DNA of 32,000 nucleotides, taken from positions 18,118 through 50,117 of the forward strand of contig JAEOSH010000011.1 of NCBI GenBank assembly GCA_016840465.1. Reading direction: 5' to 3'. This document shows positions 7,624-26,508 of the stretch, piece by piece. Position numbers and translations under genes: made by a program. The notes beneath the pieces were generated by a model that saw nothing but the letters and a program-made list of their open reading frames with translations, was not told the origin of the DNA and searched no databases. This DNA comes from Candidatus Baldrarchaeum yapensis (GTDB taxonomy: Archaea > Asgardarchaeota > Baldrarchaeia > Baldrarchaeales > Baldrarchaeaceae). Position 1 is the stretch's first letter, and the number at the start of each line of letters is the position of its first letter.

Positions 7624-8151
7624 ATGCCACTAATCCCCTTTAATGGTAGAAGGCCAAGAGTCGATGCGACCGCATACGTTTCGGATCGAGCAGTGCTTAT
7701 AGGAGACGTAATGGTTGGCAAGTACTCGAACATTTGGGAGTACGCCGTGTTAAGAGCAGATTTTGATAGAATAGAGATAGGACGTTACGTAAGTGTTCAG
7801 GATAATGTAACATTGCACGCAGCTACGGGGCATCCGACCGTTGTGGGAGATTACGTGGTTATAGGGCATAATGCTGTCGTCCACGCATGTAAGGTTGGTA
7901 ATTACGTATTAATCGGAATGGGAGCACGAGTGTGCACAGGAGCCATTATCGAGGATAACGTAATAATTGGCGCAGGGGCCGTTGTTCCAGAGGGCATGCG
8001 AGTGCCTTCAAACTCGCTGGTGGTAGGGATCCCAGCGAGAGTGGTCAGAGAACTGAAGGAAAGTGATATCAGGAGAATAGAAATCGGAGCCAAGATGTAC
8101 GCAGAGCTTGGTCAAAAATATAAAAGATTGCTCACACGGGAATCATTCTAG
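7624..8151 (+). CDS. Gamma carbonic anhydrase family (hexapeptide-repeat) protein
   Basis: LRADFDRIEIG, QDNVTLH, GHNAVVH (three metal His). Likely start ATG 7624. Confidence 0.92.
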   Translation: MPLIPFNGRRPRVDATAYVSDRAVLIGDVMVGKYSNIWEYAVLRADFDRIEIGRYVSVQDNVTLHAATGHPTVVGDYVVIGHNAVVHACKVGNYVLIGMGARVCTGAIIEDNVIIGAGAVVPEGMRVPSNSLVVGIPARVVRELKESDIRRIEIGAKMYAELGQKYKRLLTRESF

Positions 8152-11028
8152 CAAACAACTCGTTCTTTTGCATCCACCGGCGCTTTCTGCGTCGAGCAGT
8201 GGTATTTTGTCTTTATATTTGGATAGTATTTCGATAGTGCGTCTCTCTATTGGTTCGACTCCTCCGAAGAAGATCACCTGCGTTTTCTTACTTTTATCTC
8301 TATACACGGTTATTCCCTTACATTTGAGCTTCCAAGCCAACATGAAAACCTTTGCGACGGTTTCTGGAGGTTCGTCATGGCGGAGGTTCACAGTCTTAGA
8401 AACCGCATTGTCGACGTATTTCTGAAAGGCAGCCTGCATTCTAACGTGCCATTCCGGATCTATGTCATGCGCAGTTTTAAATATTCTCTGAACATCTTCT
8501 GGGACATCTTCAAGTCCCTGTACACTTCCGTAATTTTCAACGATTTTAAGTAGGAGTTCTTTACTATAGAACCCGCGCTTTTTGGCAACTTCTTCGAATA
8601 GCGGATTTATTTCTATCATACCCCCTAGTATGTTGCGAACAAACACTATGGCGAACAATGGTTCTATGCCACTGGATGCACCTGCAATTATGCTTATCGA
8701 TCCTGTCGGGGCAATCGTCGTCACGGTTGCATTTCTCATATATCTATAGCCTAGTTTCTCCCAGAGACTCCCGGGGAAGGCCGGAAAGTTTCCCCGCTCC
8801 TCACCAAGTTTCACACTCGCGTTTCGCGCAGTTTCTGTGATGAATTTCATAACTTTCTCAGCAAGAGATAATGCTTCCTCGGAGTCATACGGTATTCCCA
8901 GTTTTATAAGCATATCCGCCCAGCCCATCACTCCTAGCCCTATTTTTCTTGTCCTTAGGGTTGCGATTTCTATCTGCCTGATCGGAAACCTGTTGACATC
9001 TATGACGTTATCTAAGAACCTCACCGCAAGTTCAACCACGTATTTCATTCTCTCCCAGTTTATGCGTGGTCTTCCCTTTCCGTCGACCTCCACAAACTTC
9101 CCAAGGTTTATACTTCCCAAGTTGCAGGACTCCCACGGAAGTAGTGGCTGCTCCCCACAGTTGTGAACATAGAACCCATTCGCGTCAAACGCATTCAATC
9201 CGAGAATTCTTACGTCATAGACTCTCTCCTCACCGCAGGGGGCAACCTCTTCAACTGTTGCCAAGAAGAGTTCCCGCTTAGGATTATATCTGTTGCACTT
9301 TACTGCGTTCTCCAGAATTTTCATCTTTTCTTTACTTCCAAAGCCTACCCTTTGGTAGAAGTAAAGCACGTTGTCATCTGTTATCGTCAACTCGTATCTG
9401 TCCGCTCGTCCGTTTCCTCCGTCGATTGCACGTATTCTGGAGAATATTCCGAATCTTAGAAGGATCCTCTGTACGGCTTTGAGAAGATCAAGATCATGCT
9501 CGGATAATCTAATAGTGACGCTGCCTGACTCGTTTCTTTCCACCAATCCGTTTACGTCAAACAATCCCCTTAAGAGGCCCTTGCAGAACTCCGATGATGC
9601 CTTTTCCATTGCCTCAGTTATTACTCTCTTGCACGTCCTTAATCCAAGTTCCTCCATTATTACTGTGACGTATGAAGGATGATTCTGAGATTCTTCCTCG
9701 ACTATCTGTGCACAGTTGGCGAGAATCTTCCCTACCAGGTAACCATCTTCCACTGAGTATTTTCCGTTCCATCCATTGAGGTTCCTGTGGTTATTCATGA
9801 GGATCTTGTCACCAGGTTTTAGATCTCCAGCTTTGACCCATTCCACTTCGATTCCACGTCTGCCAACTCTTTTTACTCTAAGAACCGGATGATCCTTTGT
9901 CAGGCGCAGTTCGAATCCCTCTTTGGTTTTAAGCATATAGACCTTCTTTACTCCCGTTGCGAAGAAGCCTTCATCGCCTGACGGCCATTTTTCGCCATTA
10001 ACAATCGCAGTAAATCTCCTTCCGATCAGGTCTTTAACCATCCTGGGACCTTCATCTGTCATTATCCACGTATCTGCTGTTATGCAGGGGTTTGTCGCTT
10101 CTATTTTTCCCAAATGTGAAACGGGGTGCTTTCTGTTGATCTCATCTATAAATATGAGTCCGGGGTCTCCCGTTTTCCATGCGCACTCTACCATTAGGTT
10201 AAATATGTATCTGGCGCGCACCTTCCTTACTTTCTCGCCCGTTCTCGGGTTTATTAACCAGTATTCGCCGTCCTCCTCAACTGCTCTCATGAAGTCATCA
10301 GTAACCGCGACACTTAAGTTGAAGTTCTGGAACTCCCCCTCCTTTTCCTTTGCTCTTACGAATTTCTCGATATCCGGGTGGTCTACTCTTAATACTCCCA
10401 TATTTGCTCCTCTTCTCCTCCCACCCTGCTTTATGACCTCCGTGGCCACGTCAAAGATCTTCATGAAACTCACAGGGCCGCTTGCAACACCCGCGGTGCT
10501 TCTAACAATGTCGCCTTCAGGTCTTAGCTTTGAAAACGAGAAACCCGTACCTCCTCCCGTTTTATGAATTAATGCAGCATATTTTACTGCGTCGAATATT
10601 GATTCGAGATCATCCTCTATCGGTATAACAAAGCACGCTGATAACTGTCCTATGTCAGTTCCCGCGTTCATGAGGGTCGGGGAATTTGGTAGGAATTCCA
10701 AATTAGACATGATCTCGTAAAAGGCCTTTGCCCACCTCTCCACTTCACGTTCGGTCGCTCCGTATTTTCGCTCTGCCCTCGCAACGTGTCTTGCGACTCT
10801 CCAAAACATCTCTTGTGGGGTTTCTATGATTCTCCCGCTAACGTCCTTGAGGAGATACCTATTTTCCAGAACCCTTAACGCGTTTAACGAAAACTGTAGA
10901 TCCTTGGGATTGATGGGCTGATCTCCCTTACCCGCCTGTTCGTAGATTCTCCTGAGTACCTCTAGCTTCATTTCCTCTAACTCTTCCCGCGTGAATATAT
11001 GAACCCTGATATTGCCACTTTCCGTCAT
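8143..11028 (-). CDS. nrdJ: Class II (adenosylcobalamin-dependent) ribonucleotide reductase containing one intein
   Basis: [40 protein letters not shown] after splicing, [24 protein letters not shown]-terminal CKRTSC. Likely start 11028 (the ORF extends to 11049). Confidence 0.95.
9160..10086 (-). mobile_element. Intein (309 aa) at the RIR1-b type site with a degenerate LAGLIDADG endonuclease
   Basis: Starts [13 protein letters not shown] (block A); LTKDH (block B); VYDV (block F); ends FYVHN followed by extein Cys. Block [15 protein letters not shown] is present. Confidence 0.95.
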
Positions 11029-11278
11029 AATTACCACTTCTATGTACACCTAAGAATGTGGACATTTTAGTTTTTGGTATCAGCGAACTCCTCCATTCCT
11101 CATAATACCTGTCCTTCGGCAACTATTCAACGATGCATTGCCTAGATGATTAGTGGGTCATCGAAACTTTTTGACGCCGAAACGGGGCGGAAGACTCCAT
11201 TATAGAAATCGAGAAATAATGCGCAGCAGATGTCCCGTATGGAAATATGCCAAGAGCAAGATGACGAGATGATAGAGC

Positions 11279-19466: not shown

Positions 19467-20027
19467 CTATCCCTTGTGGGTTCTCTTAAGCATCTCGTTG
19501 ATGAGCATGTTGAAGGCTTCGGAAACGTTGTATCCTGTCTTTGCGCTTGTTTCCACGTATTTAGAGAGGTTTAACTCTTTTACTGCGTTTTCTCCTGCGC
19601 TTTCCGGAACCTTTCTCAGATCATTCATGTCGATCTTATTTCCGACCAGTATTATTGGTATGTTCTTGTCATAAGCCTCCTCTCTCAGCATATCTATCCA
19701 TTCAGGTATCTTTTCGAGGGTGTCGGGGTTTGTAACGTCGAAAACTGCGAGTGCGCCATGTGCTCCCCTTATTATGTTGCGAATGTGCCTAATAAATAGG
19801 TTCTTGAATTTTTCCTGTCCGCCGAGATCCCATATTTGCAGTTTTATCAGTTTGTCTCCCATGGGTATCGGTTTTGTTAAAATGTCAACTCCAATTGTTG
19901 GCTTGTATTCTACGTCGAAGTATCCGTGGGCGTACCTTCTGCAGAGAGAAGTCTTGCCGACCCCCCATTCTCCCACTATCACAACTTTTCTTAGGATTTT
20001 TGTCTTCTTTTCTTCACCTAAGGACAT
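19467..20027 (-). CDS. Rab-like small GTPase (Ras superfamily)
   Basis: GEWGVGKT, YKPTIGVD, KLQIWDLGGQ, GNKID, ETSAKTG. Likely start ATG 20027 (the ORF extends to 20045). Confidence 0.93.
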   Translation of the reverse strand: MSLGEEKKTKILRKVVIVGEWGVGKTSLCRRYAHGYFDVEYKPTIGVDILTKPIPMGDKLIKLQIWDLGGQEKFKNLFIRHIRNIIRGAHGALAVFDVTNPDTLEKIPEWIDMLREEAYDKNIPIILVGNKIDMNDLRKVPESAGENAVKELNLSKYVETSAKTGYNVSEAFNMLINEMLKRTHKG

Positions 20028-20054
20028 CTTGACTCCCCGAATCATATTTTTTAA

Positions 20055-20630
20055 GTGGGAGAGGGAACAGTTGTTGAACGATGCACATGCGTTCTTTTAC
20101 GTGATGAGCAATTAATATTTGTTGTTACTCGAGTGTTGCAGAACGGTGGGGTGGAAGCCTTGGGAGTGAGCGAAAAGGAGGTCGCAAAGAAGGCATTTAC
20201 GGAAGTATTGAGCGAGTTAGGCTTCAGGATCGAGGAGCCCAAGGTTAGTGGCGCAGATGTTTACGCGGTGAACGGCGATGAGTTGTATGTGATTCTTTCC
20301 GATAAGTGGGGCGAGAAAGTAAGGGAGGAGTTTAAGAGGTTTGAAGAACTTCAGGGTACTGTGAAGCGGGGCTATTGTGCGATAGTCCTGTACTTTGACG
20401 CTCAGAAATCGATGTTAAGCGAGAGGGATCTTGATGACGCCCGAAGAGAAGCCGCATTGCATAGGGTCAACCTGATAGGATTTGAAGTTACTGGGAAAAA
20501 AGTATTTCCAATTGCGCTTTCATTTAAGGGAGCCCCTGACGCTCTCGTTTCTCGCATGATGAAGGATAGGCTCTTTGAGGCATCGATTCGCCATCATGCG
20601 ACCCTTTACCGGAAGTCTTCGGAGAAGTAA
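20055..20630 (+). CDS. Hypothetical protein, possible restriction-endonuclease-like (PD-(D/E)xK) fold
   Basis: ELGFRIEE...GADVYAVNGDELYVI pattern. The real start may be about 20151-20166. The fold guess is weak. Confidence 0.5.
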   Translation: MGEGTVVERCTCVLLRDEQLIFVVTRVLQNGGVEALGVSEKEVAKKAFTEVLSELGFRIEEPKVSGADVYAVNGDELYVILSDKWGEKVREEFKRFEELQGTVKRGYCAIVLYFDAQKSMLSERDLDDARREAALHRVNLIGFEVTGKKVFPIALSFKGAPDALVSRMMKDRLFEASIRHHATLYRKSSEK

Positions 20631-21197: not shown

Positions 21198-21770
21198 TTA
21201 ACTTATTACTAGCACCTTAAAAAGATCTATATTGAAGTACCCTTTCTTTCTCAGATCATCGAGACCCTTTAGGAGGTGTATTTTTATCCTTCTCGTGTAT
21301 TCGTCCTTCTTCATTTCCTCTTTTATCATATTAACCATTTCTATCAGACTTTGTGCATCTGCGAGCATTCCTGCAAAATCCTCAGACATTTTTATGAAAA
21401 TATCGGGGTTTGATATTCTTCCCTCCTCCACCTTGAATATTTTCTGCCCGTGGTGTTCAAATGTTTTTATGTAGATAGGGGTTCCACCGACAAGCATCTG
21501 TATGGCTATCTCGCTATCTCTAAACTTAAAAAGTACCTCTGGGGTGTTGAGTAGCATATTGAGACGCCCTTTCAGGGTGTATCTCCTAATTACTGGCACA
21601 TAGGCTGGTATCTCTATCGTTGGAGGAGCAGGTTGAGGTTTGATCTCCTTAACTTCAGGGAGTGGAGGTGTTCGAGTTGGTGGTGGCTGTATTGGTACCT
21701 CTTGAGTCTCCTGCCCCTCGGTGGGCTTCTTACTGACGAATTTCTTCAGCTTTTTGATAATGAATGACAT
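21198..21770 (-). CDS. Hypothetical protein: basic amphipathic N-terminus, Pro-rich linker, possible SCP2-like domain
   Basis: MSFIIKKLKKFVSKK; PIQPPPTRTPPLPEVKEIKPQPAPP; KVEEGRISNPDIFIKMSED. Confidence 0.6.
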   Translation of the reverse strand: MSFIIKKLKKFVSKKPTEGQETQEVPIQPPPTRTPPLPEVKEIKPQPAPPTIEIPAYVPVIRRYTLKGRLNMLLNTPEVLFKFRDSEIAIQMLVGGTPIYIKTFEHHGQKIFKVEEGRISNPDIFIKMSEDFAGMLADAQSLIEMVNMIKEEMKKDEYTRRIKIHLLKGLDDLRKKGYFNIDLFKVLVIS

Positions 21771-24726: not shown

Positions 24727-25701
24727 CTACTTTATACCAAATGACAGCAATAACATCAACAGAATTAGAATCGTCACTGAGACCATAATTATGATTATTG
24801 CGAAATACTTCCTGTTTTCAACGATTGATGTAAATTTTGTCGCCTCTTTATGCGTTTGTTCTTGCTCAATATACATTTGCCTTAGTTTTTCCGTCAGAAT
24901 TCTAAGATTCTCGTAAACGAGTGCAAGCTTGTCCTCACCCGGTGTTCTGTTCGTTTCGGAGGCTATCATCTTTTTCACATCTTCTATCGTAAACTCCCCG
25001 AGCGATAATTTCCTCAGTATCTCCTCTGCAAGTGATGGTCGTTTTGTCAACGTCATGTATCCTCGAAACACAGCATACTCTATTATTTCCTTAACTTTAG
25101 ATAGGGGGAGCCCTAAGTACTTGGCAATAGAGGTTATTGTGAGAGAGCCATCTGCAATGCTAAGCACATCAATAGAGTCATGCCCGAATCTTGTTATTAA
25201 GTCTCTGTGAATGTCACTATCCCTTCTTAACACTTCTATGAGACTGCATTTACGCTTAGGGTATAAGCGTTCCGCGTCATGCTTACTTATCGATATAGGA
25301 ACTATCTTTGAGCGAGAGTTGAACTGTTCAGCAAGCATATCAATGTACTGTTCGAATGCTATGACCTCGGGAACCTTTCTTAGCACACCGCTGAAGAGGT
25401 AAAGTTTTCCCTCAAATCTTCTGAAGAACTCGGATATTACGAGATCAAGAAACTTCTCCCCCTCATATCCGCTTTTGTCATCCGTCGATACGACGAAAAG
25501 TAAGTTTCTGCGGACCTTAAACGTGAATGAGAAATGCCCCATGTCTATGTTACGGATTTCCGAGTGCCCCACCTCACGAGCAAAAATGTAAAGAGCGGTG
25601 AAAAAACCAGATATTAGATTCGGCTCTAACTGGAATCCTCCATAATTCCTGTGGATGAGACAAAGGCCGGAGGGATCAATTATCCATACCTCATAAATCA
25701 C
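24727..25701 (-). CDS. Longin-like domain + winged helix + coiled coil + C-terminal transmembrane helix protein
   Basis: N-terminal EVWIIDPSGLCLIHRNY...ISGFFTALYIFAREV is typical of Asgard longin-like domains. HTH-like DGSLTITSIAKYLGLPLSKVKEII; hydrophobic residues 299-321 at the extreme C-terminus. Confidence 0.7.
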   Translation of the reverse strand: MIYEVWIIDPSGLCLIHRNYGGFQLEPNLISGFFTALYIFAREVGHSEIRNIDMGHFSFTFKVRRNLLFVVSTDDKSGYEGEKFLDLVISEFFRRFEGKLYLFSGVLRKVPEVIAFEQYIDMLAEQFNSRSKIVPISISKHDAERLYPKRKCSLIEVLRRDSDIHRDLITRFGHDSIDVLSIADGSLTITSIAKYLGLPLSKVKEIIEYAVFRGYMTLTKRPSLAEEILRKLSLGEFTIEDVKKMIASETNRTPGEDKLALVYENLRILTEKLRQMYIEQEQTHKEATKFTSIVENRKYFAIIIIMVSVTILILLMLLLSFGIK

Positions 25702-25728: not shown

Positions 25729-26508
25729 TCAAATAACATATGGCCAGCCCGGCTTACCTCTCTCCTCGGGGCTCTCCTCCTCATCTATTCCTAAAAGGTC
25801 GGACAAGTCTTTAAGCCCACGTATTTTCCTCTCTAATTCTACAAGGTCCAAATTCAGCTCCAGTTTGTCATTCAATAACTCAACTAGTGCTCTCGATGCG
25901 TTAGGATCTAATCTCAGGTTTTCGTGAGTTTCCGCAAGTAGTGCGACCCCATCTATTCCAAATAGCGTCTTGCAGAACACCGGTATTGTTCCATTGGCTC
26001 CGGTTATCGTGCCGCCCTGGTATTTTACTGCATTTCTATGCTCCGAGAAGTATTCTAGGAGTTCATCGGACGTTGCTGCGACGTGGACACGTGGAGTTTT
26101 TGGTATACGAAACATACTGTATGCCGCTAGGGATATTATCAGCTTGCATCCCCAGTTATGGAAAGTTTCCGCGACGAATTTTGTGAACTGATAAAGGCCG
26201 TGAGGGCTAATGGGCTGAGCATCACCGGTGAGGAAAAAGATGTCTCTGTCTTCACCCCGCCATATGAAGAAGGCGCTTCTCAGGAGTTTAGATACCCCGT
26301 TCTTGTTGACTATGACCCACGCGGGGAAATCATACGGGAATACTTCCATAATTTTCTCCGCACCAAGCCCCACTATCAGACTTATCACTGCAAGTTTCCC
26401 AACACGTGCAATTCCCGGCATGCCAACTATTGCGATCGGGTCTCTCAGCGTGGAGGGGTCTATTTCCTTTAGCACTTTGATTCTCATCATACCATCACGC
26501 TCTGTCAC
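25729..26508 (-). CDS. PAC2-family proteasome assembly chaperone
   Basis: DPIAIVGMPGIARVGK, LTGDAQP, ITGANG, LLAET...DPNAS. Confidence 0.88.
   Translation of the reverse strand: MTERDGMMRIKVLKEIDPSTLRDPIAIVGMPGIARVGKLAVISLIVGLGAEKIMEVFPYDFPAWVIVNKNGVSKLLRSAFFIWRGEDRDIFFLTGDAQPISPHGLYQFTKFVAETFHNWGCKLIISLAAYSMFRIPKTPRVHVAATSDELLEYFSEHRNAVKYQGGTITGANGTIPVFCKTLFGIDGVALLAETHENLRLDPNASRALVELLNDKLELNLDLVELERKIRGLKDLSDLLGIDEEESPEERGKPGWPYVI

What the first reader, a model, noticed from the sequence alone, without database searches (positions are those of the whole stretch)
24727..25701. Tail-anchored longin protein with a membrane-proximal coiled coil: a longin-SNARE-like architecture
Seen in the sequence: residues about 1-128 are longin-like; about 165-218 resemble a winged helix; 259-294 keep a 3-4 heptad repeat (L259, V262, L266, L269, L273, M276, Q280, T283, A287, F290, V294). 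A basic-aromatic juxtamembrane NRKYF follows, then one TM helix (299-321) with only GIK after it. Established: longin + coiled coil + C-terminal TM is the layout of the longin R-SNAREs VAMP7 and Sec22. A287/F290 sit where synaptobrevin has its +5 Ala and +6 Phe. Caveats: the coil is about 36-40 aa rather than about 60, the equivalent zero layer is Leu269 rather than Arg or Gln, and the winged-helix insert is not found in eukaryotic SNAREs. It could be a proto-SNARE/tether or a membrane-anchored longin regulator of the small GTPase.
Basis: partly seen in the sequence, partly recalled or inferred. Interest (0 to 1): 0.78.

Follow-up and report, generated by a model that had tools for sequence, protein, structure and literature searches.

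The report
Tail-anchored Asgard longin protein, not SNARE

Summary
The 324-aa gene and its parts are real: longin (1-130), winged helix (138-221), three helices (224-276), one C-terminal transmembrane helix. The genome matches Ca. Baldrarchaeum yapensis (Asgard). The SNARE reading fails. Only 45 residues lie between a Pro-Gly break and the membrane. The heptad signal is confined to 259-276, a helix also present in relatives without a membrane anchor. The membrane-proximal half has no heptad signal and is the least conserved part. In 14 sister-family orthologues the segment is 6-8 residues shorter, holds 2-5 Pro/Gly, and none matches Synaptobrevin. Folded alone, the winged helix ranks GATOR1/SEACIT subunits first of 48,161 chains (Z 10.8 and 9.6). 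The protein is therefore a longin + winged-helix protein of NPRL2/NPRL3 layout, a kind already reported in Asgard archaea. It lacks NPRL2's GP motif and a conserved arginine finger. New here: an Asgard-wide family with a swappable C-terminus (nothing, a C1/PHD-like zinc finger, or, in Baldrarchaeia only, a tail anchor). Best guess: a non-catalytic, membrane-tethered small-GTPase platform subunit; no partner or activity is shown. The scan reported NPRL2-like Asgard proteins before on other DNA, including a paralogue in this genome, but not this family.

The parts
24727..25701 (-). The gene: 324-aa longin + winged helix + three-helix unit + C-terminal transmembrane anchor
   Evidence: orthologues at 40-42% identity over the full length
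25312..25701 (-). Longin domain, residues 1-130; closest in shape to TRAPP, Fuzzy/Mon1, VAMP7 and AP longins; no GP motif and no conserved arginine in the beta4-beta5 turn
25039..25290 (-). Winged-helix domain, residues 138-221, of the subtype found after the longin in NPRL2/NPRL3/Npr2
   Evidence: folded alone: top matches 8fw5_C Z 10.8 and 8adl_S Z 9.6 among 48,161 chains; 9o5d_C Z 11.2, 7t3b_B Z 8.1; Foldseek ranks 1-5 are SEA/GATOR1 chains, E 0.02-0.19
24874..25032 (-). Three-helix unit, residues 224-276; its third helix carries the whole heptad signal; also present in relatives that end in a zinc finger instead of a membrane anchor
   Evidence: P0019, P0020, P0024. That the three helices pack on each other is inferred; I could not read contacts from the model.
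24805..24873 (-). Membrane-proximal spacer, residues 277-299: helical in the model, no heptad, least conserved; shorter, Ser/Thr/Lys-rich and mostly basic in orthologues
24727..24804 (-). Single C-terminal transmembrane helix (about 300-321) and a very short tail: a tail anchor, kept in all Baldrarchaeia orthologues and in no other longin + winged-helix relative examined
25729..26508 (-). PAC2-family gene directly upstream (27-nt gap, same strand); a PAC2 gene lies within about 3 kb of the family gene in 4 of 7 Asgard families sampled. Neighbour; functional link not shown
19467..20045 (-). Rab-like small GTPase 4.7 kb downstream; its apparent orthologue (54-55% identity) lies about 8 kb from the gene in two sister-family contigs. 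Candidate client only

Best explanation
A tail-anchored member of an Asgard-wide family of longin + winged-helix proteins laid out like the GATOR1 subunits NPRL2/NPRL3. SHOWN (computed): the folds, their order, the winged-helix subtype, the family's range and its variable C-terminus. INFERRED: the protein is inserted by its C-terminal helix with everything else in the cytoplasm; the longin pairs with a second longin or roadblock protein to form the two-domain platform on which a small GTPase sits; the winged helix and three-helix unit are protein-contact surfaces; 277-299 is only a spacer. Because it has neither the GP motif nor a conserved arginine finger, it would be the scaffolding half (NPRL3-like role, or a TRAPP/Mon1-type exchange platform), and its job would be to hold a GTPase-regulating complex at the membrane.
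For: Winged helix alone ranks GATOR1/SEACIT chains first by two aligners, and the full model does so too. In 7t3b_B the match is residues 167-236, directly after the longin as here (that this chain is NPRL2, chain C is NPRL3 and 8adl_S is Npr2 is my reading from chain sizes and own knowledge). NPRL2/3 are longin + winged-helix proteins that pair through their longins (PMC3747258; PMC8534245). An Asgard family of this layout was reported in 10.1101/2020.10.19.343400. A paralogue in this genome matches Pfam NPR2 weakly across the same junction (E 0.012) and lies in an operon with a longin-fused Arf-like GTPase. Conservation falls from longin (55% query-to-orthologue) and winged helix (47%) to 11% before the membrane helix. 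In two other families the gene lies next to a stand-alone longin gene; in the sister family a second longin and a roadblock gene lie beside it. Relatives replace the anchor by a C1/PHD-like zinc finger.
Against: No partner, GTPase or activity is identified. The longin itself is closer to TRAPP, Fuzzy and VAMP7 longins than to those of NPRL2/3. The winged-helix subtype also occurs in unrelated bacterial enzymes at Z about 9 (3k9t, 8hkr), and sequence searches do not reach NPRL2/3, so shared descent as a two-domain unit is likely but not proven. The neighbouring GTPase is the same gene only within Baldrarchaeia, where UDG and PAC2 are kept in place as well, so this may be passive gene order. Most family members have no membrane anchor. 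Two of four sister-family genomes (91% and 84% complete) gave no orthologue.
Confidence: 0.55

Rival explanations
1. Longin R-SNARE-like or proto-SNARE fusion or tethering protein: residues 259-298 zip into a parallel four-helix bundle that pulls membranes together.
For: Order longin - helix - basic/aromatic - terminal TM. Weak Synaptobrevin match over 263-320 (E 0.05-0.1). VAMP7 and Sec22 longins are among the structural matches (Z 12.9 and 11.7). One continuous helix 257-322 in the model. One anchor-less relative has a weak Syntaxin_2 match over its three helices (E 0.005, below cut-off, not repeated in two others). A homomeric archaeal SNARE needs no partner genes.
Against: 45 residues from the Pro-Gly break to the membrane, too short for 16 layers; Leu at the would-be zero layer; no heptad in the membrane-proximal half. 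Orthologues: 37-39 residues, 2-5 Pro/Gly, no Synaptobrevin match in 14. Scores equal background in control genomes. The heptad helix persists in relatives with no anchor. Known archaeal SNAREs have 16 layers, a Gln zero layer and a three-helix N-terminus, and were reported only from Heimdallarchaeia (10.64898/2026.10.19.760048). Caveat: the 14 orthologues are one closely related lineage, so this is a comparison of two lineages.
Confidence: 0.04
2. Membrane-tethered one-component transcription regulator: the longin senses a ligand or partner and the winged helix binds DNA.
For: Weak matches to prokaryotic HTH families (HTH_47 E 0.004, IclR, TrmB). An AsnC-type regulator gene follows the orthologue in the sister family. 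Position 202 is Lys/Arg in 10 of 15 relatives.
Against: The helix-turn-helix has net charge -4 to +5 across relatives, with Glu/Asp common at 191, 194, 205 and 208. Transcription factors score Z 6-7.7, below the GATOR1 chains. The two strands come from opposite ends of the domain, not from a C-terminal hairpin.
Confidence: 0.1
3. Membrane adaptor for protein quality control: it works with the neighbouring PAC2-family proteasome chaperone (or a ubiquitin-type zinc finger in relatives) and not with a GTPase.
For: PAC2 lies 27 nt upstream on the same strand here and within about 3 kb in 4 of 7 families; the PAC2 genes are 39-55% identical. Some relatives end in a PHD/RING-like finger.
Against: The orientation of PAC2 to the gene is not kept (co-directional here, divergent or convergent elsewhere), and it is absent from the neighbourhood in three families. 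No known PAC2-longin complex (own knowledge).
Confidence: 0.1
4. A GTPase-independent longin adaptor, as in AP/COPI small subunits or SRX, that holds some other cytoplasmic protein at the membrane.
For: AP sigma/mu, COPI and SRX longins match at Z 10-12. Some longins act without regulating a GTPase (PMC10933270).
Against: Does not account for the NPRL-type winged helix or for the paralogue's place in a GTPase operon.
Confidence: 0.2

Closest known systems
NPRL2 / NPRL3 (yeast Npr2 / Npr3), longin subunits of GATOR1 / SEACIT, the GAP for RagA/Gtr1
   Same: N-terminal longin followed by the same winged-helix subtype (Z 8-11, rmsd 1.9-2.5 over 70-76 residues).
   Different: One winged helix instead of two or more; longin closer to TRAPP/Fuzzy types; no GP motif, no conserved arginine finger; a C-terminal membrane anchor that NPRL2/3 lack (own knowledge); no sequence-level match.
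Asgard 'NPRL2-like' longin proteins (Liu et al., bioRxiv 10.1101/2020.10.19.343400)
   Same: Asgard proteins with a longin and a small NPRL2-type C-terminal domain.
   Different: Reported there for Thor and some Loki genomes, with fusions to two-component domains; no membrane-anchored form appears in the passages read. I could not map this family to their clusters (no supplement held).
Longin R-SNAREs VAMP7, Sec22, Ykt6
   Same: N-terminal longin (Z 12.9, 11.7, 9.3); C-terminal anchor with a basic/aromatic stretch before it.
   Different: No 16-layer SNARE motif, no Arg zero layer, a 130-residue winged-helix and three-helix insert, and no conservation of the pre-membrane helix.
Heimdallarchaeal SNAREs HPS1/HPS2 (10.1101/810531; 10.64898/2026.10.19.760048)
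   Same: Asgard tail-anchored proteins with a helix before the anchor.
   Different: They have a three-helix N-terminus, 16 layers with a Gln zero layer, a conserved motif and a solved homotetramer; 'longin' does not occur in the 2019 paper.
TRAPP Bet5/Trs23, Mon1-Ccz1 and Fuzzy-Inturned longin GEF platforms
   Same: Best matches of the longin by shape (Z 13-14) and by profile (Bet5 E 2e-5, Mon1 E 5e-4).
   Different: Those are soluble, lack the winged helix and reach membranes through other subunits or lipids.

Membership tests
Longin R-SNARE (VAMP7/Sec22) | N-terminal longin domain | tested here: met
Longin R-SNARE (VAMP7/Sec22) | SNARE motif of 16 layers directly before the anchor | tested here: not met
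   45 residues after a Pro-Gly break; heptad only in 259-276; 37-39 residues with 2-5 Pro/Gly in orthologues; HMM scores at background
Longin R-SNARE (VAMP7/Sec22) | Arg (or Gln) at the zero layer | tested here: not met
   Leu269 in the only register that puts F290 at +6 (synaptobrevin layer numbers from own knowledge)
Longin R-SNARE (VAMP7/Sec22) | Single C-terminal transmembrane anchor | tested here: met
Longin R-SNARE (VAMP7/Sec22) | Forms a stable parallel four-helix bundle and drives fusion | not tested
Heimdall SNARE (HPS1/HPS2) | Conserved 16-layer motif with Gln zero layer and three-helix N-terminus | tested here: not met
   definition; sequence tests. The Heimdall-specific HMM was not available.
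NPRL2/NPRL3-type longin + winged-helix proteins | N-terminal longin followed by the NPRL-type winged helix | tested here: met
NPRL2/NPRL3-type longin + winged-helix proteins | Two or more winged-helix repeats (PMC3747258) | tested here: not met
   one repeat in this protein; two in the paralogue on contig C76 and in P0025
NPRL2/NPRL3-type longin + winged-helix proteins | Sequence match to Pfam NPR2 / HTH_NPRL3 | tested here: inconclusive
   no hit for this gene; weak hits for the paralogue (E 0.012) and for 3 of 34 related winged helices (best E 5e-5)
Catalytic longin GAP subunits (NPRL2, FLCN, SMCR8) | GP motif before strand 2 of the longin | tested here: not met
   Gly12 is followed by Leu, never Pro, in the 24 rows examined; motif defined in PMC12290439
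Catalytic longin GAP subunits (NPRL2, FLCN, SMCR8) | Conserved arginine finger on a longin loop | tested here: not met
   Arg64/Arg65 lie in a two-residue turn and are Arg in only 1 and 2 of 24 rows; that this is the loop equivalent to NPRL2 Arg78 is from own knowledge
NPRL2/NPRL3-type longin + winged-helix proteins | Longin-longin heterodimer that acts on a small GTPase | not testable with these tools
   needs biochemistry

The most novel reading that the evidence does not exclude
This family is an archaeal counterpart of the non-catalytic half of a GATOR1-type longin pair, and its C-terminus is an exchangeable membrane-targeting module: a tail anchor in Baldrarchaeia and a C1/PHD-like zinc finger in other lineages. 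It would then place a small-GTPase switch, perhaps the neighbouring Rab-like GTPase that has no lipidation signal of its own, at the archaeal membrane, and give a direct test of how Asgard GTPases reach membranes.
Probability: 0.25. Interest if true: 0.65.

Novelty: new variant of a known kind. Interest (0 to 1): 0.36.

Why it matters
A longin SNARE in an archaeon would have been important, because known archaeal SNAREs have no longin and are reported only from Heimdallarchaeia. This protein is not that, and it shows how longin + helix + tail anchor can mimic VAMP7 in a single sequence. What remains is modest. Asgard genomes hold dozens of longins and small GTPases with few assigned partners, and how these GTPases reach membranes is open. 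An integral-membrane NPRL-shaped longin, with soluble and zinc-finger orthologues as natural controls, is a usable test case for membrane recruitment of an archaeal GTPase regulator.

Tried and rejected
1. Complex prediction of residues 1-222 with the longin of the 351-aa NPRL2-shaped protein on contig C76: no verdict (score 0.13, mark 0.32). Not counted either way.
2. SNARE HMMs on the genome: nothing over cut-off. Other tail-anchored coiled partners: a hydropathy census gave 7 candidates; one 105-aa leucine-zipper protein has no SNARE match.
3. phmmer of residues 222-324 against the PDB and an Atlas feature search of 221-324: nothing usable. The structure searches barely test the three-helix unit, so its fold family is open. 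My idea that it is SHOCT-like was not supported for this gene; only the paralogue on C12 matches weakly.
4. Sequence-level link to NPRL2/3: profile searches of the PDB and Pfam NPR2/HTH_NPRL3 did not reach this gene.
5. A shared GTPase neighbour across Asgard: rejected. The GTPase beside the gene in family f12 is not the best match of the window's GTPase, and those genomes hold 15-22 such GTPases.
6. 'RRNLL' as an NPRL2-like arginine finger: rejected, not conserved.
7. Expression: no RNA holder listed; no evidence either way.
The promoter scan is bacterial and uninformative.
9. No second species of the query's own family was available, so I cannot say whether the longer helix is ancestral or particular to this species.

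Full report
Origin. The window lies on contig C61 of a 2,267,786-base genome in 100 contigs. This matches the description of Ca. Baldrarchaeum yapensis As_130, 2.27 Mb in 100 contigs (10.1101/2020.10.19.343400), and an orthologue is labelled Candidatus Baldrarchaeia. The organism is an Asgard archaeon.

The observation. The ORF 24727-25701 (-) encodes 324 aa, and public contigs carry it unchanged, though they may be its source. AlphaFold2 on a 69-row alignment gave mean pLDDT 90 and pTM 0.54, so the domains are confident and their relative placement is not. It shows a longin (1-130), a winged helix framed by strands 146-150 and 216-220, helices 224-233 and 239-250, and a helix from 257 to 322 that includes the membrane segment. 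The longin matches TRAPP (Z 14.1), CPLANE (13.9), Mon1-Ccz1 (13.2), VAMP7 (12.9), AP/COPI subunits and Sec22 (11.7). It is a true longin, but it does not point to SNAREs more than to other longin families. There is one hydrophobic segment, at the C-terminus.

The SNARE test. SNARE motifs have 16 layers and a Gln/Arg zero layer. Here 45 residues separate a Pro-Gly break from the membrane helix. The heptad signal is confined to 259-276 (p = 0.004). Residues 277-298, which would be the fusion-driving half, have none (p = 1.0). The Synaptobrevin model scores 12.9-14 bits against a cut-off of 26.4; an unrelated ORF of this genome scores 14.3, and 10 of 14 control genomes ring at the same threshold. 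The SNARE model does not hit the gene. Fourteen orthologues from the sister family (40-42% identical) keep longin, winged helix, helical unit and terminal membrane helix. Their segment before the membrane is 37-39 residues long with 2-5 Pro/Gly, mostly basic and Ser/Thr-rich, and none matches Synaptobrevin. Identity to the query is 55% in the longin, 47% in the winged helix, 12% in 255-276 and 11% in 277-299; among the orthologues it falls from 94% to 40%. These orthologues are one lineage, so the comparison is between two lineages, but a fusion motif should be the part they share. Known archaeal SNAREs have a three-helix N-terminus and were reported only in Heimdallarchaeia (10.64898/2026.10.19.760048).

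What it is. The full model's best Foldseek matches were SEA/GATOR1 chains spanning both domains. To exclude a longin effect I folded residues 138-280 alone. Foldseek ranks 1-5 were again SEA/GATOR1 chains, with weak E-values of 0.02-0.19. The independent search of 48,161 chains gave 8fw5_C (Z 10.8, rmsd 2.2, 75 aligned) and 8adl_S (Z 9.6) first, two bacterial enzymes at Z 9.0 and 8.8, and transcription factors at 7.7 or less. The second look added 9o5d_C (Z 11.2) and 7t3b_B residues 167-236 (Z 8.1). From chain sizes and my own knowledge these chains are NPRL3, Npr2 and NPRL2. NPRL2/3 are described as longin plus winged-helix proteins whose longins pair (PMC3747258; PMC8534245), and Asgard proteins of this layout are already known. 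A paralogue on contig C76 (longin plus two winged helices) matches Pfam NPR2 weakly at the same junction and lies in an operon with a longin-fused Arf-like GTPase. The catalytic marks are missing: no GP motif (defined in PMC12290439) and no conserved arginine in the beta4-beta5 turn.

The family. A profile search of 1.84 billion proteins and a search of 400 Asgard genomes found close relatives in at least seven families. They share longin and winged helix and differ at the C-terminus: nothing (210-240 aa), a long helical tail (about 660 aa), or the three-helix unit followed by a Cys/His finger that matches C1, PHD or RING models (P0020 reaches the C1_2 cut-off). Only Baldrarchaeia members have a membrane helix. 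In a maximum-likelihood tree of the two shared domains the anchored proteins form one clade (96/93) among soluble and zinc-finger relatives, apart from the C76 and C89 paralogues (midpoint root, deeper forks unresolved). A Baldrarchaeia-specific gain of the anchor is the simplest reading, not a tested one.

Neighbours. A PAC2 gene lies within about 3 kb in 4 of 7 families, in changing orientation. A stand-alone longin gene is adjacent in two families, and the sister family has a longin with 3-4 membrane helices and a roadblock protein beside it. The window's Rab-like GTPase has an apparent orthologue about 8 kb from the gene in two sister-family contigs, but UDG and PAC2 are kept too, and the GTPase beside the gene in family f12 is a different one. 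Gene order gives candidates, not proof.

Mechanism. Most likely (0.55) the protein is a tail-anchored, non-catalytic subunit whose longin pairs with a second longin or roadblock to form a small-GTPase platform at the membrane. The folds, the family and the anchor are computed results; pairing, client and activity are inferred from how longin dimers work in TRAPP, Mon1-Ccz1 and GATOR1. The genome encodes three full-length ArsA/Get3-family ATPases, so a route for inserting tail anchors may exist. Rivals: GTPase-independent adaptor (0.2), membrane-bound transcription regulator (0.1; the helix-turn-helix has no conserved basic face), PAC2-linked adaptor (0.1), SNARE (0.04).

Verdict. The anatomy is largely confirmed and the SNARE interpretation is not. 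This is a new, tail-anchored variant of a known kind of Asgard protein. Earlier notes of this scan describe NPRL2-like proteins in other Asgard genomes and the C76 operon of this one; I read them after reaching the NPRL reading, and none covers this gene. Interest 0.36.

Noticed in passing
L062:3591-7358 (G000:C76:39590-43357, -): Five-gene operon: a 351-aa longin + winged-helix protein found in 180 of 251 Asgard genomes searched, a longin-fused Arf-like GTPase, a 180-aa helical protein, a longin + two winged-helix paralogue of this gene, and a 157-aa protein. Already noted by the scan.
   Followed up: partly
L061:3918-4235 (G000:C96:33917-34234, +): 105-aa tail-anchored protein with a clean leucine zipper running into the membrane helix, the best heptad score among tail-anchored proteins of this genome; it lies among transposase and toxin-antitoxin-like genes and has no SNARE HMM match.
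   Followed up: partly
L073:4241-7748, also L074-L079, L083, L084: In family f12 the soluble orthologue follows a Rab-like GTPase and an Asp/Asn-tRNA synthetase gene on one strand, and faces a gene with a PLD-like domain and an N-terminus that looks MIT-like by eye (MITD1-type layout; MIT not tested).
   Followed up: partly
L019:5529-6931, also L022, L080, L081, L115-L119: In the sister Baldrarchaeia family a roadblock-like + winged-helix gene and a longin with 3-4 C-terminal membrane helices lie next to PAC2 and this gene; no full-length counterpart of either was found in the window's genome.
   Followed up: partly
window 25729-26508; G000:C61:17726-18553; C56:117132-117890: Three PAC2-family paralogues in the genome; the one here stays near the longin/winged-helix family gene in four Asgard families. 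Unexplained.
   Followed up: partly
G000:C84:62859-63776; C10:889-2876: Three full-length ArsA/Get3-family ATPase genes, two of them in tandem.
   Followed up: no
window 24687: One public contig (X4) has 10 extra bases, a local duplication, in the gap between this gene and the UDG gene.
   Followed up: no
window 8143-11049 (-): Class II ribonucleotide reductase with what looks like an intein with an endonuclease domain inserted at the NPC/GEQ site (read from the translation).
   Followed up: no
window 21198-21770 (-) and 20055-20630 (+): Two ORFs of about 190 aa without any Pfam match; the first has a proline-rich N-terminal linker.
   Followed up: no
L035-L039 (family f28): About 660-aa relatives with the same longin and winged helix followed by a 450-residue helical region of unknown kind, also near PAC2.
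   Followed up: no
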